Positions 19,025-28,200 of a DNA stretch of 64,000 nt are shown here, one piece after another. How positions within the stretch are numbered: the stretch's first letter is position 1; each line of letters starts with the position of its first letter. The notes under the pieces are model-generated. The model ran no database searches, had not been told where the DNA came from, and saw only the letters and a list, made by a program, of their open reading frames with translations. Position numbers and translations under genes: made by a program. Source of the DNA: Archangium gephyra (GTDB lineage Bacteria > Myxococcota > Myxococcia > Myxococcales > Myxococcaceae); assembly GCA_943370055.1 (NCBI GenBank), contig CALRPN020000058.1, positions 4,399-68,398 on the forward strand, given 5' to 3'.

Positions 19025-20505
19025 ACCGCCTGCTCCCGCTCGTGTTGATGCTGGGCTGTGCCACGACGCCGATTGCCGTCGAACCCGTGATCACGCGGCC
19101 GAACCCGGGCCTCGAGGCTGCTCCGCAGAAACGCGTCCTCGCCGAACTCCCAGCGGCCCTCGACGTCGATCCGCGATCCCTCACCGTCGCTCCCCTGGAC
19201 GTGAAGGTGACGCGGCCCGAGCGCTACGAGCTGCCGAACGGACTCGTCGTCTACCTGATGGAGGATCACACCTCGCCGCTCGTGCTGGTGCGCACGTTGA
19301 TTCCTGTGGGCGCAGTGGATGAGCCAGCCGATCGCCTGGGCGTGTCGGGCATCGCGGCCGAGCTCGTCACCGCAGGCGGAGCCGGGAGCAGAACGCCAGA
19401 GCAGCTCGACGAACTGCTCGAGTTTCACGCGGCCGATCTCGGTGGCGGCGCGGCCGACGAGTATTCCCAGGTCAGTCTCTCGGTGCGCAGTCAGGATCTC
19501 GCAGCGCTCTTCCCTGTGTTCGCCGACGTGTTGCAGCGGCCGCGCCTGGACGCGGCGCGCTTCGAGGTGACGAAGTCGCGGGTGCTCGAGTCGATCAAGC
19601 GCCGCAACGATCGGCCAGACGGTCTCGCCGCACGGGCGTTGAGCAAGGCGCTCTACGGCACCGACACGTTGCTCGGTCGCGAGTCGTCCGAGGCGAGCGT
19701 CAAGGCGATCACCGTCGACGACGTGAAGAAGTTCCACGCGAAGTGGACGCCGAAGACGGCCCGGCTCGTGATCACCGGTGACTTCGATCGCGCTGCCGTG
19801 AAGACGCTCGTCGAGCGATCCTTCGGGGCCTGGAAGGGTGGTTCTCCACCTCCACGCAACTTCCCCACGGCTGGTCCTCCCGCGCGCCGGGTGATTCTGA
19901 TTCCTCGCGCCGTCGCTCAGGTGAAGGTGCGCATCGGTGGAGCAGGGTGGACGCGTCGGTCTCCCGACGAGTACCCGATGCGCCTGGTGAACACCGCGCT
20001 CGGCAGCTTCGGGGTCGGCCGGCTGTACCGCGAGATTCGTGACGAGCGGGGCCTCGCCTACTCGGCGTCGTCGAGCGTTGGCGGCGGGCCCACGTTCGGC
20101 CAGTTCACGGCAAGCTTCGACACGCGGCCGCAGCAGGCGGTGCAGGCCCTCGAGGTCGCGCTCGACGTGCTCACGAAGACGGGCAGCGCCGATTCACTGA
20201 CGAAGGCCGAGCTCGCGACCGCGACCGACATGGCGCTCAACACCTTCGCCTTCCGCTTCGACTCTGCTTCGCGAATCGCCTGGGAGCGGGCCCTCAGCGA
20301 GTTCTTCGGCTACGACGACGACTATCTCGACCGCTATCGCGATCGCATCGCTCAGGTGACAGCAGCCCAGGTGAACGCCGCCACCGCGAAGCTCACGAGG
20401 CAGGACGCGCTGCAGATCGTCATCGTCGGCCCGAAGGACGTGCTGGGCGATCTCTCTCGTTTCGGCCCCGTCACCGTCATCGAAGATGTCGACGCATTCC
20501 GCTGA
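19021..20505 (+). CDS. M16 family peptidase, non-catalytic partner subunit
   Basis: ATGA overlap with the preceding M16 gene. It has the M16 fold pattern but no HxxEH motif, and a lipoprotein-like N-terminus (LVLMLGC). Confidence 0.85.
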   Translation: MNRLLPLVLMLGCATTPIAVEPVITRPNPGLEAAPQKRVLAELPAALDVDPRSLTVAPLDVKVTRPERYELPNGLVVYLMEDHTSPLVLVRTLIPVGAVDEPADRLGVSGIAAELVTAGGAGSRTPEQLDELLEFHAADLGGGAADEYSQVSLSVRSQDLAALFPVFADVLQRPRLDAARFEVTKSRVLESIKRRNDRPDGLAARALSKALYGTDTLLGRESSEASVKAITVDDVKKFHAKWTPKTARLVITGDFDRAAVKTLVERSFGAWKGGSPPPRNFPTAGPPARRVILIPRAVAQVKVRIGGAGWTRRSPDEYPMRLVNTALGSFGVGRLYREIRDERGLAYSASSSVGGGPTFGQFTASFDTRPQQAVQALEVALDVLTKTGSADSLTKAELATATDMALNTFAFRFDSASRIAWERALSEFFGYDDDYLDRYRDRIAQVTAAQVNAATAKLTRQDALQIVIVGPKDVLGDLSRFGPVTVIEDVDAFR

Positions 20506-20573
20506 TCAGCAAAGAGCCACGTGATCAGCGCGATCAGCAGCAACGCAAGTTCTCCGTCATTCCGACGACTTTT

Positions 20574-20601
20574 TTGACGGCGCTGATCAGGTCCGTACGC
20601 T
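20574..20601 (+). promoter_or_regulatory. candidate sigma70-type promoter for the PilZ gene
   Basis: TTGACG-N16-TACGCT is preceded by a T6 run, which is rare in this sequence. The spacer contains one of the clustered TGATCA palindromes. Confidence 0.3.
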
Positions 20602-20653
20602 TCGCAACAGCTCGCTGCAGCAGTGCAGCAGCTGCCACCACAACGGAGCGTGC

Positions 20654-20983
20654 ATGAGCAACAACAAGCGGAAGAACAGCCGGGTCGCCCTCGACATTTA
20701 TCTGAACAAGTACGTCGCTGGCGTTCCGTACATGGCGCGCACGTCTGACATCTCGCGCGAAGGTGTGGGCCTGTCGCACCTCATCGAGCCGCAGATGGCG
20801 GGCAAGCGCGTCGGTCTTCAGTTCCAGCTGCCGGGCTCCGAAGAAGTCATCTATGCGGAAGGTGAGGTCGTTCGGGAGTGGGCCGACCTCGATCACGAAG
20901 AGGAAGGCTCGGGCGTTCGATTCACGTTGCTCACTGAACGCCACCGCCGCCTCATCGATCAGTTCGTTTCGCGCGCGAGCTGA
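20654..20983 (+). CDS. stand-alone PilZ-domain protein (c-di-GMP receptor type)
   Basis: 109 aa with RKNSR (RxxxR) followed by DISREGVG (D/NxSxxG), the bipartite PilZ binding motif. Confidence 0.8.
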   Translation: MSNNKRKNSRVALDIYLNKYVAGVPYMARTSDISREGVGLSHLIEPQMAGKRVGLQFQLPGSEEVIYAEGEVVREWADLDHEEEGSGVRFTLLTERHRRLIDQFVSRAS

Positions 20984-21014
20984 ACCCACCCACCCTTCCG
21001 GTGTCTTCGTTCCC

Positions 21015-21044
21015 TTGAAGGTCTCTGGCTTCCGTCCGTAGAGT
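21015..21044 (+). promoter_or_regulatory. candidate promoter for the LPP20/FlgT-like operon
   Basis: TTGAAG-N18-TAGAGT lies in the 105-nt gap before GTG 21089. Confidence 0.25.
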
Positions 21045-21088
21045 ACGGCGAACCGTTCAGAGCCTGTTGGACCTATCAAGGGGGCCCC

Positions 21089-21970
21089 GTGAAGCGTTTG
21101 GTGTTGGCAGTGGCGTTGGCCGTGTCGATGTATGCGGTCGCGCAGGGTGCAGCAAAGGACTCGAAAGAAGCCCAGCGCCCACCGCAGGGAATGAACTGGG
21201 AGGGTCAGGTCATTCGTGCGACCGGCGCGGGTGCTCCCGACATGAAGGCCTCGAGCCCGGCACAGGCGCGACTTGGCGCTGAGCGTGCTGCGTTGCTCGA
21301 CGCCTTCCGAAACCTGCTCTCGCAGGTGAAGGGCGTTCAAGTCGACGGCACCCGGAAGATGGATGACGTCATGCAGTCCAATGAGGTTCGCGCCCGCGTC
21401 GAGGGCCTCATCAAGGGCTACAAGGTCGTCAACAAGCGCTACTTCTCGGACAACGGCGTCGAGATCGACGTCGAAGTGCCGGTCTCGATGTTGACCGACA
21501 TTCTCGACCCCGACGCGACGCAGATGTTCGCGGTTCCGGCGAGCAAGACCGAGCCCGTGAAGACCGCTGAGAAGCCCGCCGAGAAGCCGGCCGAAAAGCC
21601 CGCTGAGAAGGGCACCGAGCCCGTCGTCGCGAAGGTCGAGGACGGCGCCGGCACGGGTCTGGTGATCGACGCCCGCGGTCTGAAGCTCATGCCCGCGCTC
21701 ATGCCCCGCGTGCTCGACGAGGCAGGGAAGCCGCTCTACACGGTCGACTCCCTCTCGGCCGAAGCGCGCAAGACGACCGGCGTCGCCGCCTACGTTCAGT
21801 CGCTCGACGAGGCCCGCAAGAGCATGAAGGCCGGCGACAAGCCGATGGTGGTGAAGGCCGCCAAGGCCAACGGCACCGACGTGCTCCTGCCTCAGGACGA
21901 AGCGAAGAAGCTGGTCTCCATGAATCCCCCGTTCCTTGCCCAGGGCAAGGTCGTCATCGTCTTCAACTAA
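21089..21970 (+). CDS. secreted LPP20/FlgP-like protein with AEKP repeat linker and C-terminal domain
   Basis: Signal peptide MKRLVLAVALAVSMYAVAQG. LPP20 pattern VIRATGAGAP...PAQARLGAERAALLDAFRNLL...RVEGLIKGYKV. A linker repeat (AEKP)x4 precedes a second domain, GLVIDARGLKLMPALMPRVLDE... Confidence 0.7.
   Translation: MKRLVLAVALAVSMYAVAQGAAKDSKEAQRPPQGMNWEGQVIRATGAGAPDMKASSPAQARLGAERAALLDAFRNLLSQVKGVQVDGTRKMDDVMQSNEVRARVEGLIKGYKVVNKRYFSDNGVEIDVEVPVSMLTDILDPDATQMFAVPASKTEPVKTAEKPAEKPAEKPAEKGTEPVVAKVEDGAGTGLVIDARGLKLMPALMPRVLDEAGKPLYTVDSLSAEARKTTGVAAYVQSLDEARKSMKAGDKPMVVKAAKANGTDVLLPQDEAKKLVSMNPPFLAQGKVVIVFN
21566..21610 (+). repeat. in-frame 12-nt tandem repeat (AEKP x4)
   Basis: gctgagaagccc / gccgagaagccg / gccgaaaagccc / gctgagaag read directly in the sequence. 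Confidence 0.8.
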
Positions 21971-21984
21971 GGAACTGCGCCACC

Positions 21985-23208
21985 ATGCGAACGCTCATTG
22001 TCCTCACCGCGCTCGGCAGCGCACTGGCCTTTGCACAGCCCCAGGCGGCACCAGCCGTCACGACGGTGGAAGCCACCGGAGAGTCGGCCGTCTTCCCCGG
22101 CCCCGAGCGCGAGAAGCTGGTCGCCAAGGCGATCGAGAAGGCCCAGAAAGAAGCACTCCGCTCAGCCGTCGAGAAGGCGTCTGGCGTGTACATTCAGTCC
22201 GACACGCAGACCCGCAACAACTCGCTCGTCCTCGACCGCATCGTCACCAACGCCTCGGGCTACGTGAAGAGCTTCGACGTGGTGAGCAAGGTCGTCGAGA
22301 AGGACGTCGCCAAGGTCACGATCAAGGCCCAGATCGCGACCGACACGCTCGAGAAGGACGTCAAGGCAGCGCGCTCCATCGTCAGCCGGCTCTTCGGGTC
22401 CAAGCTGCTCATCGTGTTGCAGGAGCAGCTGGTCGATGAGAAAGGCGTCGTGTCCCGCTCCGAGTTTCTTCCCGTTGCGCTCACCGGTCGCTTCAAGGAC
22501 TCGGGCTTCTCGATCATCGACGAGAAGGGCACTGGCAGCTCAGACCTCGGCCTCGTGCTCTCGAGCGGCGTCGGCCAGGGCAAGCTCGACGCGAAGGAGA
22601 TCCTCAAGCGCAGCGACGCCGACTTCATCATCTACGGCAGCGCGAACGTTCGCTACGTGCCGCCCGATCCGAGGTCTCCCGGCATTCCTGAGATTGATCC
22701 CGTCACCGGCAAGCAGATGACGTTCTTCGTGACCGGCGACTACGACCTCTCGATGTTCGCCACCCGAACGGGCCAGCAGCTCTCGAAGCAGGCCGGCCGT
22801 CTGAACGTGCAATACGGCAACGCCAAGAGCGCCATCCTCGTCTCGTACCAGCGCTCCGCGTCCTTCGCGGTCGAAGGCAGCTCGAAGGAGATCGTCTCGT
22901 CGTTCTTCGCATCGGTCTTCGAATACCTGCGCGACCAGGACGTGAACGGGGCGAAGCTCACCGTGCGCGTCTCGGGCATTCCAGCGTTCGACGAGGTGGA
23001 GGATGTCGAGAAGGCGCTCGGCGTCGTCGAGGGCGTCAAGGACGTGAAGGCGGGCGAGTTCGCCGACGGCCGCGCCGACTTTGGCGTTCAGTTCCTCGGA
23101 AACTCGAGCGACTTCGGCAAGGCGCTGAAGGGCGCGAACATCAAGAAGCGCAAGCTCGTGGTGACTGCGGTTCGAAACAACGTGGTCGAGGTCAACCTCG
23201 TCAAGTGA
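21985..23208 (+). CDS. secreted FlgT-like multi-domain protein (LPP20-like N-domain + alpha/beta middle domain + C-domain)
   Basis: Signal peptide MRTLIVLTALGSALAFA. N-domain: ATGESAV...AKAIEKAQKEALRSAVEKASGVYIQS...YVKSFDVV. The middle part (KLLIVLQE...FSIIDEK...ADFIIYGSANV...FATRTGQQL) resembles the FlgT-M / CsgG-LpoB-type fold. Confidence 0.55.
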   Translation: MRTLIVLTALGSALAFAQPQAAPAVTTVEATGESAVFPGPEREKLVAKAIEKAQKEALRSAVEKASGVYIQSDTQTRNNSLVLDRIVTNASGYVKSFDVVSKVVEKDVAKVTIKAQIATDTLEKDVKAARSIVSRLFGSKLLIVLQEQLVDEKGVVSRSEFLPVALTGRFKDSGFSIIDEKGTGSSDLGLVLSSGVGQGKLDAKEILKRSDADFIIYGSANVRYVPPDPRSPGIPEIDPVTGKQMTFFVTGDYDLSMFATRTGQQLSKQAGRLNVQYGNAKSAILVSYQRSASFAVEGSSKEIVSSFFASVFEYLRDQDVNGAKLTVRVSGIPAFDEVEDVEKALGVVEGVKDVKAGEFADGRADFGVQFLGNSSDFGKALKGANIKKRKLVVTAVRNNVVEVNLVK

Positions 23209-23552
23209 GGTGGGCCGTGCTGGCGTTCGCGGGCTGTGCGTCGTCACAGCCCGCTTTGCCAAACCTGCCGAGGGTCACCGAAACGCAGCTGCGCACGGCG
23301 TATCGGGTGTCGGGAGCTGGCGAGCTGGTGCTGCGTTGCGCTCCCTCCGATGCTGAGGTGGCGCTCGACGGCGTCTCGCAAGGGCTCTGCAGCGATTTCA
23401 ACGGCGAGCCTCACGCGCTCAAGGTGGGTACGAGCGCACGCCGCGTCGAAGTGAAGAAGTCCGGGTTTCACACGTGGGAAAGCTGGCTGGCCGCAGATCA
23501 GACCCGAGTGGTGATGACGGTCACCTTGCTGCCGAGCGGAGGAAGTCCATGA
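23205..23552 (+). CDS. PEGA-domain lipoprotein
   Basis: GTG start overlaps the previous stop (GTGA). Lipobox FAGC. PEGA-like LVLRCAPSDAEVALDGVSQG...VEVKKSGFHTWESWL. Confidence 0.65.
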   Translation: MRWAVLAFAGCASSQPALPNLPRVTETQLRTAYRVSGAGELVLRCAPSDAEVALDGVSQGLCSDFNGEPHALKVGTSARRVEVKKSGFHTWESWLAADQTRVVMTVTLLPSGGSP

Positions 23553-24277
23553 AGCGCCTGTTCGCCGTTGCAGTGACGCTGGCCTCGATGGCCGCGTTCG
23601 CCGAAGTGGGGAAGGTCGCGCTCGTCGAGGGCAAAGCGACGCGCACGCCAAAAGGCGGAGCGGCGGTCGAGCTCGCAAAGGACTCTGCGATCGAGCTGGG
23701 TGACACCATCGACGTGCAGAGCGGCAACCTGAAGCTGCTGCTGACCGACGAGAGCATCATCATGCTGGCCCCCGCCTCGAAGCTCGAGATCACCGAGGCC
23801 GAGTTCCAGGGCCAGGAGCGCAAGGGCTTCAAGGCCTTCCTCCAGTCGGGCAGCCTGTGGACGAAGGTGAAGAAGGCGCTCGGCGGTGGCGGCTACGAGG
23901 TGTCGACCGAGCGCGCCGTCGCCGGTGTTCGCGGCACGATCTTCCGCATCGACGCCGACAAGATGGTCACGGCGGCGAAGCCTCCCAAGGCGCGCAAGGC
24001 CTCGATCGTTCGCATCGTCGAGGGCGTCGTGAACATCAAGCCGTCGGCCGAGGTCGCCAAGGCGTCGACGGGCGCAGCACCTCCGCCGAAGAAGAAGGGC
24101 GAGCGGGTGCAGGTGGCTGGCCCGAGCGAGATCACCGCGGACGAGTGGGAGAAGAAGTTCGTCGACCTGCAGCAGAACCAGCAGATCGCGGTGGGCGTCG
24201 ACCTGTGGGACGTGGCGCAGTTCGAAGAGGCAGCCAAGCGCGATGCGTTCGCGAAGTGGATCGAGAAGAACCAGTAA
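23549..24277 (+). CDS. secreted FecR-domain protein
   Basis: ATGA overlap with the previous gene, with GGAGGA 6 nt upstream. Signal peptide MKRLFAVAVTLASMAAFA. FecR pattern GKVALVEGKA...LGDTIDVQSGNLKLLLTDESIIMLAPASKLEI...AVAGVRGTIFRI. Confidence 0.7.
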   Translation: MKRLFAVAVTLASMAAFAEVGKVALVEGKATRTPKGGAAVELAKDSAIELGDTIDVQSGNLKLLLTDESIIMLAPASKLEITEAEFQGQERKGFKAFLQSGSLWTKVKKALGGGGYEVSTERAVAGVRGTIFRIDADKMVTAAKPPKARKASIVRIVEGVVNIKPSAEVAKASTGAAPPPKKKGERVQVAGPSEITADEWEKKFVDLQQNQQIAVGVDLWDVAQFEEAAKRDAFAKWIEKNQ

Positions 24278-25076
24278 CGTCGCCCTCGTGGTGGTGATGC
24301 TCGGAGGCCTGTCGGCCTTCGGCCAGAACCAGCGCCCCCTTCCTTCCGAGAGCCCTGACGTCATCGTCGGGCGCTCGGTTCGGGTTCACGTCGTCGCCAG
24401 CGAAGACCTCGAGCCAGACGTGCTTCGAGCCCTCGCGCGCCCGCAGGTCGTGCTGTGGCTGACGACTCGTTCCAACACCCTGCGTGAGTCGACGCTCGAC
24501 ACGCTCAACCGCTTCGAGTCGAGCTTCGTTGAGCTGCGGCCTCCCGTGGCGGCGGTCGACGGAAACGCCCTCAAGAAGAGTCCGCGTGCTGGGCTCTGGC
24601 TGAAGCTCGACACAGCCTCGTCGCTCGCGACCGTGCGTGGTTCGCGCCCGCTTGCGCTCGAAGTGACGGGCAGCCTCGACGAGGTGAAGCAGGGCTGGGT
24701 GCTCGCCCAGCGGCCGACGTTCCTCCGCTGGGCGCCCGGTGAGTCGATCGATTTGCTCGAGTGGAGCCGCTTCAAGACGCTCCCGGGGCGCAAGACCGTC
24801 GTGCTCTCGCCTGGCCTGCTCCTTCCCCGCGACTGCGCCACGCGAGACCCCGCTGAACCTTCTGCGGAGTTGCACGTGGCGACGCTGCTGGCGGTGAGCG
24901 CTGGGGTGTTTCCCTGCGGCGCGGGCACGAGGGTCGAGGTGCCTCCCGAGGTCGAGCCGTGGTTGCTCAAGTCGTTGATCGTGCGGGACCCCTCGGTCGA
25001 GCTGGTCGTTCGGGTCGGAGACGACGTGCGCAAGGTCGGGCGCGCGCGGGCGCTGCTCGAGCTGCTGGGGCGTTAG
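24243..25076 (+). CDS. secreted protein, unknown function
   Basis: 277 aa. ATG 24243 gives a classic signal peptide MRSRSGSRRTSNVALVVVMLGGLSAFG. Overlaps the FecR gene by 35 nt. No motif recognised. Confidence 0.55.
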   Translation: MRSRSGSRRTSNVALVVVMLGGLSAFGQNQRPLPSESPDVIVGRSVRVHVVASEDLEPDVLRALARPQVVLWLTTRSNTLRESTLDTLNRFESSFVELRPPVAAVDGNALKKSPRAGLWLKLDTASSLATVRGSRPLALEVTGSLDEVKQGWVLAQRPTFLRWAPGESIDLLEWSRFKTLPGRKTVVLSPGLLLPRDCATRDPAEPSAELHVATLLAVSAGVFPCGAGTRVEVPPEVEPWLLKSLIVRDPSVELVVRVGDDVRKVGRARALLELLGR

Positions 25077-25087
25077 GCTGCGCACTC

Positions 25088-25134
25088 GCGCGGATTGCTT
25101 GACCTTCCGCTCGCTGAGCGGCGACAATCCGCGC
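25088..25134 (+). promoter_or_regulatory. nested inverted repeats in the gap before gltD
   Basis: Perfect 10-bp arms GCGCGGATTG / CAATCCGCGC (25088-25097, 25125-25134) enclose an inner hairpin CCGCTC-GCT-GAGCGG (25107-25121). Confidence 0.4.
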
Positions 25135-25154
25135 CTCTCAAAGGGTTGAAGGAG

Positions 25155-25175
25155 ACGAGGCGCCTTTCGCCTCGT
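25155..25175 (+). terminator. hairpin, weak terminator-like
   Basis: ACGAGGCG-CCTTT-CGCCTCGT (8-bp stem) is followed by TCGT only. The U-tract is poor, so it may be a 5'-UTR structure rather than a terminator. Confidence 0.3.
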
Positions 25176-25227
25176 TCGTAGCGCCACGATGCTTTTGCGT
25201 ACCCGCCCTTCTTTCGGGAACAGCCCC

Positions 25228-28200
25228 ATGCGTTCATTGATTCCGAGTCTCGTCCTCGTGTCGTCGTTCGCGCTCGCGCAGACGCCAGCCGCAACGAAGA
25301 AGGAGGCCGTCGACACAGAGCTGAAGAAGAAAGAGACGTCGATCGCCCCAGACAAGTCGCTGGCCGGCGACATCACGCGCAAGAAGAAGAAAGAAGAAGA
25401 CGCGCCGACGCTCTCGTACGACACGTTCCGGCTCGACGTCGAACTGCAGGTCGCCAGCAAGCGCCGAGATCAGATCGGCGATCTCACCAAGATCATCGAG
25501 CTGTCGAACGACAAGAAAGAGAAACCGGCGCTGCTGTTCCGCCTGGGCGAGCTCTATTGGGAAGAGTCGAAGTACTTCTTCTTCGAGGCGAACCGGAAAG
25601 ACGACGACAAGATCAAGGCGATGAACTCGAAGGACGAGGCGGGCATTCAGCGCGCCGAGGCCGAGAAGGCCGAGCTCATGGCGAAGTCGAAGGAGTTCGC
25701 CGACCAGGCCGTCGAGAAGTACTACCAGATCGTCCAGGAGTACAAAGAGTACGAGCGCACCGACGAGGTCCTCTACTTCCTCGGCCTCAACCTGATGGAT
25801 TCTTCCGACGAGAAGAACCAGAAGAAGGCGCTCGCTTCGTACAAACGACTCATCGAGAAATACCAGAAGTCGAAGTACCTGCCTGACGCCTACCTTGCCG
25901 TCGCCGAGTTCTATTTCAACGGCTCGAAGGGCAAGCGCGATCAGCTCGAGAAGGCGCTCGAGAATTACAAGAATGCCGCGAAGTACCCCGACAACCAGGT
26001 GTACGGCTATGCGCTGTACAAGCAGGGGTGGTGCCACTTCAACATGGCCGACTACGAGAAGGCCATGGACCAGTTCAAGACGGTGGTCCTGTACGCGAAG
26101 ATGCAGGGCGCCGAAGAAGTCGAAGGCAAAGGCAAGTCACGGCGTCAGGGCCTGGTGAAGGAAGCGCGCGGTGACTACGTGCGCGCGTTCTCTCGTGGGG
26201 GTGGTGCGCCGAGCGACGCCAAGGAGCGCTTCGGCAAGCTCGCCGACAAGGCTGAAGACCTGCGCCTGATGATGAAGCAGCTCGCGAACCTCTATTACGA
26301 AGACGGCAAGGATCGCGAAGCGGCCGTCACCTTCGACTCGCTCATCAAGGAGCGCCCGACCGCGCCCGACGCGCCCGGCTTCCAGGGCAAGATCGTCGAC
26401 TGCGTCATGCGCGCCGGCAACAAGCGCCAGACCGTCACGCAGGTTCGCCGCCTCGTGAAGATCATGGACGACGTGTTGAAGGGCAACACGAAGATGGACG
26501 ACAAGGACAAGAAGGCGCTCGACGAAGCGCGCGAACTGTCCGAGCGCACCATCTCGAACCTCGCGGTCAACTGGCACAACGAGGCGAAGAAGACCCGCGA
26601 CGACGAGACCTTCGGCTTCGCGAACGAGGTGTACGCCGACTACCTCACGCTCTTTCCCGAGAGCCCCAAGGCCTACGACCTGCGCTTCTTCTGGGCAGAA
26701 TTGCTCAACGACAACCTCAGCAAATACAAGCGCGCGGCAGAAGAATACACGCGCGTGATGATGACGGACGTCGGTCGAGTGGAAAAGAAGGGCGACGATG
26801 GCGCTCCGGGCAAAGCCGGCAAGTGGATGAACAACGCCGCGTACAACTCGATCCTCGCGTGGGACTCGGTGGTGAAGGAAGAAGCCACCGCCGACGCTGG
26901 AAAGGCGCCATCGGGTGGCGGAGACCCCTCGAAGAAGGCGGCCATTCCACTCACCAAGCAGGCGCTGCTCGAGGCGTGCGAGCGGTACCTCAAGTACGTG
27001 GAGAAGGGCGATAAGAAGGTCGAGATCGCCTACAAGGCCGCGAAGATCTACTACGACTACAACTACCTCGACGAAGCCGTCGGCCGCTTCGCAGACATCG
27101 CGCTCAAGTACCCCGACTACAAGTTCGAGAACGGCGACCGCGCGGGCGAGATCGCGGCCAACCTGGTGCTCGACTCGTACAACATCCTCCAGGACTGGGC
27201 GAAGGTGAACGAGTGGTCGAAGAAGTTCTACGCCGAAGAGAAGCTCGCGATCGGCAAGTTCCGTGAAGACCTCGCGAAGCTGATCGAGCAGTCGTCGTTC
27301 AAGCTCATCAATCAGCTCGAGGCGAAGAACGAGTACGGGAAGGCCGCCGAAGCGTACATGACCTTCGTGCAGGACTGGCCGAAGAGCGATCTCGCCGACA
27401 AAGCCCTGTACAACGCGTCGATCGACTTCTTCAACGCGAAGATGCTCGACCGCGCCATCGAGGTGCGAAAGCAGCTCATTCAGAGATACCCGAAGTCGCA
27501 GTACGTGCCGAAGACGCTGTACGCACTCGCAGAGGGCTACGAGGCCATCGCCGACTTCGACGACGCGGCTGATCACTACGAGCGATACACCGCCAACTAC
27601 GAGAAGAGCAAAGGCCCCGCTGGCAAGCGGCCCGCGATGAAGTCGAAGAAGGACGCTCCGACGCAGGCTGAGCAGGTGTGGGAAGAGCAGAAGGCCCAGG
27701 ACGCGCTGTACAATGCTGGGGTCTTCCGTGACGGCCTTGGCCAGTACAAGCAGGCGCTCAAGAACCGCGAGAAGTACCTCGAGCTGTGGCCCAAGTCGAA
27801 AGACGCCGAGGCCGTGACCAAGTCGATCATCGACCTGCACGAGAAGATGGCGCTCTGGACGAAGGCCCAGAAGCTCTACGAAGAGTACGAGAAGGACCAG
27901 ATCAAGGACCCGAGCAAGCTGCTCTGGGCCGAGGGGCGCATCGCGTCGATCTACGAAGAGAAGCTCAAGAACAACACCGGCGCGCGGAAGATCTTCATTC
28001 GCATCCTCGACTACCACGAGAAGCTCAACAAGAAGCAGAAGGAGGCCCTCGACATTCAGGCCCTCGACGCCGTCGCCCGCGCCTCGTTCGTGATGAACGA
28101 AGACGACTACAAGCGTTACTCGAACCTCAAGCTGCGCTGGTCGGCAATTCAGAACATCGGTGAGCTCAAAGGCTCCATCGCCACGAAGGCCAAGGCGCTC

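What the first reader, a model, noticed from the sequence alone, without database searches (positions are those of the whole stretch)
20654..25076. PilZ + FlgP/LPP20-like + FlgT-like + PEGA lipoprotein + FecR-domain + unknown secreted protein: uncharacterised envelope operon abutting the gliding cluster
Six co-directional genes sit directly upstream of gltD. The five exported ones are tightly coupled: a 14-nt gap at 21971-21984, a GTGA overlap at 23205-23208, an ATGA overlap at 23549-23552 and a 35-nt overlap at 24243-24277. The 21089 ORF carries the LPP20 pattern (IRATGAGAP...ARLGAERAALLDAFRNLL), the family that includes flagellar FlgP. The 21985 ORF repeats that fold N-terminally and continues with an alpha/beta module resembling the FlgT middle domain or the CsgG/LpoB fold. 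In Vibrio and Campylobacter, FlgP/FlgT-type proteins build periplasmic or outer-membrane rings around a rotary motor. Here such proteins occur without any flagellar gene in view, next to a machine driven by a TolQR/MotAB-type motor. A stand-alone PilZ gene precedes the operon, suggesting c-di-GMP input. To my knowledge this gene set is not part of the described Glt/Agl/Nfs inventories. Working hypothesis: a periplasmic ring or scaffold module, either serving the gliding complex or forming a separate c-di-GMP-controlled envelope structure.
Basis: partly seen in the sequence, partly recalled or inferred. Interest (0 to 1): 0.7.

Follow-up and report, generated by a model that had tools for sequence, protein, structure and literature searches.

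The report
Non-flagellar FlgP/FlgT-like envelope gene module
Next to the gliding-motility genes of an uncultured myxobacterium sits a conserved, uncharacterised gene set that pairs a c-di-GMP-type PilZ protein with exported relatives of flagellar ring proteins; it is widespread, only sometimes linked to gliding genes, and its FlgT-like gene has been swapped for a very different version between near-identical genomes.

Summary
The fold calls hold:
- **PilZ:** above Pfam threshold, with intact RxxxR and DxSxxG motifs.
- **293-aa protein:** its profile matches solved FlgP structures (1.7e-11).
- **407-aa protein:** its model matches Vibrio FlgT over its full length (Foldseek 1.5e-9).
- **PEGA:** orthologues pass Pfam's threshold.
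- **FecR:** passes the threshold.
- **277-aa protein:** remains unknown.

The link to gliding is weak. About 90 related loci show PilZ–FlgP-like–FlgT-like–(PEGA)–FecR–(AI-2E permease)–unknown as a self-standing module. It precedes gltD in only one clade. Elsewhere it precedes thrS–infC–pheS, and Myxococcus xanthus MXAN_3585–3590 shows that same layout by coordinates. Conserved promoter-like boxes precede PilZ, the five-gene operon and gltD separately.

New observation: in near-identical genomes (flanks 94–100% nt identity) the FlgT-like ORF is only 52–68% identical, which indicates allelic replacement.

Best reading: an autonomous module that builds an outer-membrane-tethered periplasmic scaffold, with probable c-di-GMP input. 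It is not an established Glt component. No function has been tested.

The parts
20574..20601 (+). Conserved promoter-like motif upstream of PilZ (TTGACG, 16-nt spacer, TACGCT)
   Evidence: TTGAC and CCGTA.GCT are invariant in an alignment of 7 loci that includes the divergent L001 and L004. Sequence read. Function as a promoter is inferred.
20654..20983 (+). Stand-alone PilZ protein (109 aa, cytoplasmic, no signal peptide) with R6xxxR10 and D32xS34xxG37 motifs
   Evidence: Pfam PilZ 1.1e-12, 48.6 bits. Motifs read from the translation. It is the first gene of the module in nearly all loci and the most conserved member, 78-100% identical.
21015..21044 (+). Conserved promoter-like motif upstream of the five-gene operon (TTGAAG, 18-nt spacer, TAGAGT)
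   Evidence: CTTGAAGGT and CCGTAGA are conserved in W, L007-9, L014 and L001. Sequence read. Inferred.
21089..21970 (+). FlgP/LPP20-like two-domain periplasmic protein (293 aa). It has an SPI signal peptide and no lipobox. Residues ~35-145 form the FlgP-like domain, followed by a PAEK-repeat linker and a highly conserved C-terminal domain (188-293) of unknown fold.
   Evidence: Pfam LPP20 6e-5. Profile A4 against PDB: C. jejuni FlgP 9hmf_C 1.7e-11, Vibrio FlgP 1.3e-5. Alignment. The C-terminal domain has no Pfam or PDB hit. The 12-nt tandem repeat lies at 21555-21610.
21985..23208 (+). Full-length FlgT-like protein (407 aa, SPI signal peptide) with an LPP20/FlgT_N domain, a CsgG/LpoB-like alpha/beta middle domain and a C-terminal alpha/beta domain. 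This is the dimorphic (allelically replaced) gene.
   Evidence: FlgT_N 4.7e-4. AF2 pLDDT 72. Foldseek hits FlgT 8z5n_0 at 1.5e-9 and 3w1e at 9e-9 over 413 columns. The exhaustive profile search found 6889 representatives. Allelic replacement is shown.
23205..23552 (+). Small PEGA-domain lipoprotein (115 aa; lipobox FAG-C). It is the only lipid-anchored member.
   Evidence: PEGA 0.073 in the window protein. Orthologues in L001, L011 and L016 score 21.2-27.2 bits, above the 20.8 cut-off. The lipobox is conserved.
23549..24277 (+). Exported FecR-domain protein (242 aa) with a cleavable signal peptide and no anti-sigma N-terminal domain or TM helix
   Evidence: Pfam FecR 6.3e-11, 43 bits. NCBIfam gives weak hits to LipL45 and Lsa33. 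N-termini.
24243..25076 (+). Exported protein of unknown fold (277 aa) with two invariant cysteines (C198, C225)
   Evidence: No Pfam, NCBIfam or PDB-profile hit. Alignment A3. The single-sequence AF2 model is unusable at pLDDT 40.6.
25099..25128 (+). Conserved sigma-70-type promoter-like site of gltD (TTGACC, 18-nt spacer, GACAAT), separating the module from the glt cluster
   Evidence: Found by the consensus scan. CTTGAC and GGCGA[CG]AATCCGC are invariant in 6 loci, including L001 whose surrounding spacer differs.
25155..25175 (+). Conserved hairpin in the presumed gltD 5' leader (ACGAGGCG / CGCCTCGT)
   Evidence: Read. In one search, L009 carries a two-sided change (GAGGCT/AGCCTC) that keeps the pairing. 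Not followed by a T-run, so it is not a terminator.
25228..28848 (+). gltD (context, not part of the module). gltE, gltG, gltI and gltJ follow downstream.
   Evidence: TPR and YbgF-like hits. GltG has FHA + TonB_C and GltJ has Zn-ribbon + GYF. Gene order.

Best explanation
The locus is a self-standing, vertically conserved myxobacterial cell-envelope module. It is not part of the Glt gliding machine.

**Composition.** The module is a separately promoted gene for a small cytoplasmic PilZ protein with intact c-di-GMP-binding motifs, followed by a tightly coupled five-gene operon for exported proteins:
- a soluble two-domain FlgP-like protein;
- a full-length FlgT-like protein;
- a small PEGA outer-membrane lipoprotein;
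- a signal-peptide FecR-domain protein;
- a 277-aa cysteine-pair protein of unknown fold.

**Most likely mechanism (inferred, not shown).**
- The PEGA lipoprotein tethers the assembly to the inner face of the outer membrane.
- The FlgP-like and FlgT-like subunits oligomerise into a periplasmic scaffold or ring, as their flagellar homologues do in the Vibrio H-ring and the Campylobacter basal disk.
- The FecR-domain protein and the unknown protein act as adaptors.
- PilZ provides c-di-GMP-dependent control from the cytoplasm through an inner-membrane partner not yet identified. In some lineages this could be the AI-2E-type permease encoded inside the module.

**Relation to glt.** The position next to gltD is a lineage-specific arrangement.

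**Allelic replacement.** Within the glt-linked clade the FlgT-like subunit is repeatedly replaced by recombination with deeply divergent alleles. This implies that it is either under diversifying or balancing selection or is freely exchangeable.
For: **Shown**
- Gene order PilZ-FlgP-like-FlgT-like-(PEGA)-FecR-(AI-2E)-unknown recurs in about 90 contigs.
- gltD, gltE and gltG follow only in the clade with at least 53% FlgP-like identity. No glt hit at E<=1e-4 was found in L036, L043, L046-49, L066, L072 or L092, despite 5-7 kb of downstream flank. In L036, L043, L048 and L072, the loci examined further, ThrRS follows, with IF3 also in L043, L048 and by gene order L036, and PheRS in L043.
- Fold homology comes from FlgP profile hits, the full-length FlgT Foldseek match and homology between the two N-domains.
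- The export signals and the single lipobox are conserved.
- PilZ motifs RKNSR and DISREG are conserved family-wide.
- Promoter-like boxes are invariant upstream of PilZ, of the operon and of gltD.
- Allelic replacement: flanks are 94-100% nt identical in L008 vs L012, while the FlgT-like ORF is 52-68% identical, with 487 core mismatches. The window vs L007 pair shows GltD 98%, PilZ 100% and FlgT-like 54%.

**Inferred**
- M. xanthus MXAN_3585 (PilZ) and MXAN_3586 (307 aa), plus four more genes, sit directly upstream of infC(dsg?)-rpmI-rplT-pheST. This is read from coordinates in the eLife 2019 supplement.
- Deletion primer 3585_B encodes KRKNKR, matching the family's N-terminal KRKNxR.
- The MXAN_3585 deletion mutant had no motility, EPS or development defect (PMC8316039).
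Against: - No oligomer, localisation or phenotype data exist for any exported member, so the ring or scaffold idea rests on homology alone.
- The FlgP-like protein lacks the lipid anchor of true FlgP.
- FlgT_M and FlgT_C Pfam models do not hit, and TM-scores to FlgT are low (0.35/0.39). The domains match but their arrangement may differ.
- A cytoplasmic PilZ has no obvious route to a purely periplasmic assembly in the window clade, which lacks the AI-2E permease.
- Immediate adjacency to gltD is maintained across GltD divergence from 98% down to about 60%, which could reflect functional coupling in that clade.
- M. xanthus orthology is inferred from coordinates and one primer, not from sequence comparison.
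Confidence: 0.5

Rival explanations
1. In the glt-linked clade the module is an accessory of the gliding machine. It would form a FlgP/FlgT-type periplasmic collar that supports or positions the Glt trans-envelope complex driven by the TolQR/MotAB-like AglRQS motor, with PilZ acting as a c-di-GMP brake or clutch.
For: The module lies directly upstream of gltD in every locus of one clade, with GltD identity ranging from about 60% to 98%. The genes are co-directional. FlgT and FlgP homologues scaffold stator-driven machines in Vibrio and Campylobacter (established knowledge; PDB 8z5n and 9hmf hits).
Against: The module exists without glt neighbours in many lineages and probably in M. xanthus. 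gltD has its own invariant promoter-like site. Other genes are inserted between the module and gltD in L010 (4 kb) and L011. Swapping the FlgT-like allele is not accompanied by any change in GltD, which stays 98% identical. M. xanthus gliding screens and the G1 definition do not include such genes. The probable PilZ orthologue is dispensable for gliding.
Confidence: 0.17
2. The module is a c-di-GMP-controlled export conduit or outer-membrane funnel for a polymer or small molecule. This would be analogous to the lipoprotein rings CsgG (curli) or PelC (Pel polysaccharide), with the AI-2E-type permease as the inner-membrane component.
For: The middle domain of the FlgT-like protein matches CsgG, LpoB, PelC and LptE folds, and relatives hit Pfam CsgG and FlgO. 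PilZ proteins classically gate exopolysaccharide secretion (established knowledge). An AI-2E family permease lies inside the module in about 10 lineages.
Against: The module contains no synthase, glycosyltransferase, polymerase or beta-barrel gene. The permease is absent from the window clade and several others. All 24 M. xanthus PilZ mutants made normal EPS.
Confidence: 0.12
3. The FlgT-like protein is exposed to or contacted by outside agents (phage, bacteriocin, or kin-recognition or outer-membrane-exchange partners). The module would then be a surface or envelope recognition structure, which would explain the dimorphism.
For: There are sharp, ORF-bounded allelic replacements in near-identical backgrounds, seen at least twice in the window clade and again in L004 vs L050. 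Structural relatives include the surface-associated H. pylori lipoproteins HpaA and HP0492. Polymorphic recognition loci such as traA are known in myxobacteria (own knowledge).
Against: The protein has only a Sec signal peptide and no known surface-export signal. In glt-unlinked clades the FlgT-like gene is as conserved as its neighbours, at 88-96%. There are no PADLOC defence hits. Divergence is uniform over all three domains rather than concentrated in one exposed loop.
Confidence: 0.08
4. The module is an envelope-stress or signalling device built around the FecR-domain protein, which would act as a periplasmic sensor. The other proteins would serve as ligands or anchors.
For: The FecR domain is above threshold. 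FecR domains transmit periplasmic signals in Fec-type systems (established knowledge).
Against: The protein has a cleavable signal peptide and lacks the cytoplasmic anti-sigma domain and TM helix. No ECF sigma factor or TonB-dependent transducer gene is adjacent in the window or related loci.
Confidence: 0.05

Closest known systems
Vibrio H-ring proteins FlgT and FlgP (PDB 3w1e; LPHT ring 8z5n)
   Same: The 407-aa protein aligns with FlgT over its full length in fold space (E 1.5e-9 and 9e-9) and carries the FlgT_N domain. The 293-aa protein's N-domain matches FlgP by profile. Like Vibrio FlgT, the FlgT-like protein is exported with a Sec signal and has no lipid anchor.
   Different: There is no flagellar gene context and no MotX, MotY, FlgH or FlgI. 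FlgT_M and FlgT_C Pfam models do not hit, and the global TM-score is low (0.35). The FlgP-like protein is not a lipoprotein and carries an extra conserved C-terminal domain. The partners here are PEGA, FecR, a protein of unknown fold and PilZ.
Campylobacter jejuni basal-disk protein FlgP (PDB 9hmf chain C)
   Same: It is the best sequence-profile match to the 293-aa protein (1.7e-11, residues 43-118) and is a ring- or disk-forming periplasmic scaffold protein.
   Different: C. jejuni FlgP is a 171-aa lipoprotein of a flagellar motor. The window protein is 293 aa, has no lipobox, has a repeat linker and a second domain, and comes from a lineage without flagella.
TsaP, the LysM plus FlgT-like-domain protein that rings the PilQ secretin of type IV pili (M. 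xanthus 3jc8, P. aeruginosa 6ve2)
   Same: It is a precedent for FlgT-like folds building a periplasmic ring around a non-flagellar envelope machine in myxobacteria. A TsaP orthologue is in this same window at 9852-11033 (2.9e-88).
   Different: TsaP has a LysM peptidoglycan-binding domain and is encoded as a single gene. The module protein has no LysM domain and is embedded in a five-gene operon. No secretin gene is adjacent.
Lipoprotein rings CsgG, PelC and LpoB/LptE-type alpha/beta domains
   Same: The middle domain of the FlgT-like protein matches these folds (E 5e-4 to 2e-3). Relatives hit Pfam CsgG.
   Different: The matches are weaker and cover only one domain. The module contains no curli, Pel, PBP or Lpt genes.
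Myxococcus xanthus Glt/Agl gliding machinery (G1 cluster gltD-J)
   Same: It is physically adjacent and co-directional in the window. The window's G1 cluster is canonical: GltG has FHA + TonB_C, GltJ has ZnR + GYF and GltI is 4085 aa.
   Different: The module is not in the published inventory (PMC3169522), has its own promoter-like sites, and is unlinked to glt in other lineages and probably in M. xanthus.

Membership tests
FlgT (flagellar H-ring protein) | FlgT_N domain (PF16548) | tested here: inconclusive
   The window protein scores 21.1 bits, below the 28.8 cut-off. Orthologues P0011, P0015, P0016 and P0053 carry precomputed PF16548 hits.
FlgT (flagellar H-ring protein) | Three-domain N/M/C architecture | tested here: inconclusive
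   Foldseek aligns the full length to FlgT (413 columns, E 1.5e-9, prob 1.0), but TM-scores are 0.35/0.39 and rmsd is above 10 A. FlgT_M and FlgT_C Pfam models do not hit.
FlgT (flagellar H-ring protein) | Flagellar gene context and association with the LP ring and MotX/MotY | tested here: not met
   No flagellar family appears among about 27 window ORFs scanned or in the gene tables of related loci.
FlgP / LPP20 lipoproteins | LPP20/FlgP domain | tested here: met
   Profile A4 hits C. jejuni FlgP at 1.7e-11 and Vibrio FlgP at 1.3e-5. The single sequence scores 23.8 bits, just under Pfam's 25.9.
FlgP / LPP20 lipoproteins | N-terminal lipobox cysteine (lipid anchor) | tested here: not met
   The signal peptide ...SMYAVAQG has no Cys, and none is present in the N-terminal signal-peptide region of any of 10 orthologues.
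FlgP / LPP20 lipoproteins | Assembly into rings or disks | not testable with these tools
   No multimer prediction or experiment is available here.
PilZ c-di-GMP receptors | PilZ domain above threshold | tested here: met
   48.6 bits against 22.5.
PilZ c-di-GMP receptors | RxxxR and (D/N)xSxxG binding motifs | tested here: met
   R6-KNS-R10 and D32-I-S34-RE-G37 were read from the translation. Both are conserved across about 70 orthologues.
PilZ c-di-GMP receptors | Actual c-di-GMP binding | not testable with these tools
   Motif-bearing PilZ proteins such as M. xanthus PlpA can fail to bind in vitro (PMC8316039).
FecR-type anti-sigma regulators | FecR periplasmic domain (PF04773) | tested here: met
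   43 bits against 24.
FecR-type anti-sigma regulators | Cytoplasmic anti-sigma domain plus TM helix, with an adjacent ECF sigma factor and TonB-dependent transducer | tested here: not met
   The protein starts with a cleavable signal peptide (MKRLFAVAVTLASMAAFA) and the FecR domain begins at residue 58. No sigma or transducer gene is nearby.
PEGA-domain proteins | PEGA domain (PF08308) | tested here: met
   The window protein scores only 13.4 bits, but orthologues score 27.2, 24.1 and 21.2 bits against the 20.8 cut-off.
Glt gliding machinery component | Conserved co-occurrence or synteny with glt genes across gliding myxobacteria | tested here: not met
   Synteny holds in one clade only. It is absent in L017, L036, L043, L046-49, L066, L072 and L092. 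No PilZ gene lies near MXAN_4870.
Glt gliding machinery component | Co-transcription with gltD | tested here: inconclusive
   An invariant promoter-like site lies in the 151-nt gap and no terminator is present. Read-through is not excluded, and no RNA data are available.
Glt gliding machinery component | Requirement for gliding | not testable with these tools
   The only indirect evidence is that the MXAN_3585 (probable PilZ orthologue) deletion mutant glides normally.

The most novel reading that the evidence does not exclude
In the clade that includes this window, an ancestral housekeeping FlgP/FlgT-type periplasmic ring module has been recruited to the Glt focal-adhesion machine. It would form a non-flagellar 'H-ring' around a TolQR/MotAB-type motor-driven complex under c-di-GMP/PilZ control. 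Its FlgT-like subunit would be kept polymorphic by balancing selection, for example from phage or kin-recognition pressure. This would be the first flagellar-type outer scaffold shown on a gliding motor.
Probability: 0.1. Interest if true: 0.85.

Novelty: new variant of a known kind. Interest (0 to 1): 0.5.

Why it matters
FlgP and FlgT are known as accessory rings of high-torque flagellar motors. Here, full-length relatives of both are conserved together with PilZ, PEGA and FecR partners across many uncultured myxobacterial lineages, which belong to a group without flagella. By coordinates, they are probably also present in the model species M. xanthus (MXAN_3585-3590), where nobody appears to have studied them.

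If these proteins build a periplasmic ring, that ring is a new envelope structure in a well-studied model organism. It would also be a second case, after TsaP, of flagellar-type scaffold folds reused elsewhere.

The ORF-precise allelic replacement of the FlgT-like gene between near-identical genomes is unusual for a supposedly periplasmic structural protein. It offers a handle on what the structure interacts with.

For the gliding field, the practical message is cautionary: adjacency to gltD in this window is lineage-specific and does not by itself nominate new Glt parts.

Tried and rejected
- **Broader protein search.** A third homologous-protein search with the wider alignment A2 returned essentially the same 17 proteins, so no cultured-species homologue could be fetched.
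- **Genome scan.** The single genome-contig scan used narrow peptide patterns and found only 5 MAG loci. Absence from cultured genomes cannot be concluded from it.
- **Structure of the 277-aa protein.** The single-sequence model had pLDDT 40.6 and was not searched against structure libraries.
- **Profile and HMM searches.** Searches for the 277-aa protein and for the C-terminal domain of the FlgP-like protein found nothing.
- **M. xanthus annotation look-ups.** Supplement searches for MXAN_4871-4876 and MXAN_3587-3591 gave almost nothing. Only MXAN_3585, 3586, 3592, 3593 and 3595 were recovered.
- **Cluster look-ups.** Twenty family representatives were checked and all were metagenomic.
- **Other screens.** PADLOC gave no defence-system hit. 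Rfam found no RNA family, including no c-di-GMP riboswitch, in 20300-25400.
- **Assembly chimera as the cause of the dimorphism: rejected.** Each allele type recurs on several independent contigs with the same flanks, and the breakpoints coincide with ORF ends.
- **General hypervariability of the FlgT-like gene: rejected.** In glt-unlinked clades it is as conserved as its neighbours.

Full report
**1. Observation**

- PilZ, 20654-20983
- a 293-aa ORF, 21089-21970
- a 407-aa ORF, 21985-23208
- a 115-aa ORF, 23205-23552
- a FecR-domain ORF, ATG 23549 to 24277
- a 277-aa ORF, 24243-25076

gltD follows from 25228. The 14-nt gap and the GTGA and ATGA overlaps follow from these coordinates. The 35-nt overlap depends on ATG 24243 as the start, which is supported by a conserved MRSRSG..RRTS N-terminus in close relatives. 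GC3 of 0.76-0.91 and conservation of the same gene order in about 90 independent contigs show that these are real genes.

The downstream cluster is a canonical G1 gliding cluster:
- GltE is a TPR protein.
- GltG has FHA + TonB_C.
- GltI is a 4085-aa homologue.
- GltJ has Zn-ribbon + GYF.

**2. What the proteins are**

- **PilZ.** It scores above the Pfam threshold (48.6 bits). It carries R6xxxR10 and D32xS34xxG37, and both motifs are conserved in about 70 orthologues.
- **The 293-aa protein.**
  - It scores just under Pfam's LPP20 cut-off.
  - A profile of ten orthologues hits solved FlgP structures: C. jejuni 9hmf_C at 1.7e-11 and Vibrio 8z5n_2 at 1.3e-5.
  - It has a Sec signal peptide but no lipobox cysteine.
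  - After the FlgP-like domain come a variable PAEK-repeat linker (12-nt tandem repeat at 21555-21610) and a strongly conserved C-terminal domain with no detectable relatives.
- **The 407-aa protein.**
  - Its FlgT_N hit is sub-threshold, but the family is on record for orthologues.
  - The AlphaFold model (pLDDT 72) has as best PDB matches FlgT in the Vibrio LPHT ring (8z5n_0, E 1.5e-9) and the FlgT crystal structure (3w1e, 9e-9). Both align over the whole length. Single-domain matches to HpaA, GNA1162, CsgG, LpoB and PelC follow.
  - TM-scores are low (0.35/0.39), so the domains match but their mutual arrangement is uncertain.
  - An exhaustive profile search finds 6889 representative clusters (58 at E<=1e-30). 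The nearest outgroup is a large family of ~390-aa proteins with FlgT_N plus a CsgG/FlgO-like middle domain, not bona fide Vibrio FlgT.
- **The 115-aa protein.** It has a conserved lipobox (FAGC), and its orthologues pass Pfam's PEGA threshold.
- **The FecR-domain protein.** It is exported via a cleavable signal peptide and lacks the anti-sigma and TM part.
- **The 277-aa protein.** It has two invariant cysteines and no detectable relatives. The single-sequence model was unusable.

**3. Is it tied to gliding?**

In the window's clade the module sits directly upstream of gltD, and this holds while GltD identity falls from 98% to about 60%.

A metagenome scan with the FlgP-like profile recovered 80 more loci. 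HMM profiling of all loci shows PilZ-FlgP-like-FlgT-like-(PEGA)-FecR-(AI-2E permease)-unknown as a unit in its own right:
- No GltD, GltE or GltG hit is present in lineages with at most ~50% FlgP-like identity and 5-7 kb of downstream flank (L036, L043, L046-49, L066, L072, L092).
- In the four of these loci examined further, ThrRS lies downstream of the module. IF3 follows it in L043 and L048, and a similar-sized gene sits at that position in L036. PheRS was confirmed in L043.
- A still more distant four-gene core (L017) also lacks glt neighbours.

Three promoter-like motifs are invariant across divergent loci while the surrounding spacers vary:
- upstream of PilZ: TTGACG, 16 nt, TACGCT
- upstream of the five-gene operon: TTGAAG, 18 nt, TAGAGT
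- upstream of gltD: TTGACC, 18 nt, GACAAT

The transcriptional picture is therefore PilZ alone, then a five-gene operon, then glt. This is an inference; no RNA data were available.

**4. The model organism**

The published G1 cluster is MXAN_4870-62 (PMC3169522). None of the 24 M. xanthus PilZ genes lies near it (PMC8316039).

Coordinates in the eLife 2019 supplement place the following genes:
- MXAN_3585, PilZ, 4182154-4182543
- MXAN_3586, hypothetical, 307 aa, starting 12 nt downstream
- MXAN_3587-3591, five genes in the next 4.8 kb
- rpmI (MXAN_3592), rplT (MXAN_3593) and pheT (MXAN_3595)

This is the same 'module then translation-factor and tRNA-ligase genes' layout as in the glt-unlinked metagenomic loci. 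The space fits FlgT-like + PEGA + FecR + unknown + infC.

The published deletion primer 3585_B encodes KRKNKR, matching the family's N-terminal KRKNxR. I therefore infer, but could not verify by sequence, that MXAN_3585-3590 is the M. xanthus orthologue, about 1.9 Mb from gltD by the MXAN coordinates. The MXAN_3585 deletion mutant had normal T4P and gliding motility, EPS and development.

**5. An unexpected feature: allelic replacement of the FlgT-like gene**

- Between the window and its closest relative L007, PilZ is 100%, FlgP-like 96%, FecR 96% and GltD 98% identical, but the FlgT-like protein only 54%.
- Nucleotide identity drops from about 90% to 45-70% precisely over 21985 to about 23300.
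- The cleanest pair is L008 vs L012.
  - The flanks are 94-100% identical at the nucleotide level, and the ORF is 52-68% identical.
  - There are 487 mismatches in the core against 5 in the last 850 nt of the right flank.
  - Intermediate divergence extends about 200 nt on either side, which is a recombination-tract signature.
- Two allele classes (window/L012/L014 against L007/L008/L009) are each found on several independent contigs, which excludes assembly chimeras.
- L004 vs L050 shows another swap, with a breakpoint after the N-domain.
- Divergence is uniform over the three domains.
- In the glt-unlinked clades the FlgT-like gene is as conserved as its neighbours, at 88-96%. The phenomenon is therefore clade-specific and not a general property of the family.
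- No defence-system model matches.

**6. Most likely mechanism**

This section is inferred from homology, export signals and gene coupling; none of it has been shown.
- The PEGA lipoprotein anchors a periplasmic assembly to the outer membrane.
- The FlgP-like and FlgT-like proteins oligomerise as their flagellar homologues do.
- The FecR-domain and 277-aa proteins act as adaptors.
- PilZ supplies c-di-GMP-dependent control through an unidentified inner-membrane partner. The AI-2E permease found inside the module in about ten lineages is a candidate, but it is absent from this window.

TsaP is a precedent for such reuse of flagellar scaffold folds. It is a LysM/FlgT-like ring around the PilQ secretin, and its orthologue lies 10 kb upstream in this window.

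Rival readings are listed separately with their evidence: a Glt accessory in this clade, a CsgG/PelC-like export funnel, a recognition or phage-target structure, and FecR-type signalling. The Glt-accessory reading is the most serious. I give it about 0.17.

**7. Verdict**

I rate it a new variant of a known kind: FlgP/FlgT-type periplasmic scaffold proteins in a non-flagellar, PilZ/PEGA/FecR context. No paper in the searched library connects such proteins with Myxococcus gliding. Interest is moderate. It is raised by the ORF-precise dimorphism and by the fact that a probable orthologue sits unstudied in M. xanthus, where decisive experiments are straightforward.

Noticed in passing
window 21985-23300; L007 5268-6479; L008 9998-11218; L012 10001-11215: The FlgT-like ORF is replaced by a ~53%-identical allele between genomes whose flanking genes are 94-100% identical at the nucleotide level. 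Two allele classes recur on independent contigs.
   Followed up: yes
window 9852-11033 (+): A LysM protein of 393 aa is the orthologue of M. xanthus TsaP, the ring around the PilQ secretin (PDB 3jc8, E 2.9e-88). TsaP is itself a protein with FlgT-like domains in a non-flagellar machine. bamD-like, recN, PP2C and M23 peptidase genes lie around it.
   Followed up: partly
window 25099-25175: An invariant promoter-like site (TTGACC, 18 nt, GACAAT) is followed by a conserved hairpin (25155-25162 / 25168-25175) in the presumed gltD leader. L009 keeps the pairing through a change on both sides. This may be a regulatory 5' UTR element of the glt operon.
   Followed up: partly
window 21555-21610: A 12-nt tandem repeat (4.7 copies) encodes PAEK repeats in the linker of the FlgP-like protein. 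Copy number and sequence of this linker differ among close orthologues, and the linker is absent in others.
   Followed up: partly
L004 6429-7538; L016 7680-8891; L043 11352-12545; L036 11457-12653 (absent from window): An AI-2E family permease gene sits between the FecR-domain gene and the unknown gene in about ten lineages, both glt-linked and unlinked. It is missing in the window clade. It may be the inner-membrane partner of the module.
   Followed up: partly
window 17258-20505; compare L012 6509-8702 and L008: The pair of secreted M16 zinc-peptidase genes directly upstream of PilZ is present in the window, L001, L004, L007, L027, L033 and L050. It is absent in the closely related L008 and L012, where a ~700-aa protein abuts PilZ. 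This is a presence/absence polymorphism.
   Followed up: no
L017 14709-17696: Next to the most distant copy of the four-gene core lie a PilB-type T2SSE ATPase gene on the opposite strand and an ORF whose N-terminus looks PilZ-like (…GGCFVRT…). In that lineage no stand-alone PilZ gene precedes the module.
   Followed up: no
window 14870-17134 and 34337-36178: Two large ORFs (754 aa and 613 aa) have no significant Pfam family. The second occupies the position of agmV (MXAN_4864/65) inside the G1 cluster.
   Followed up: no
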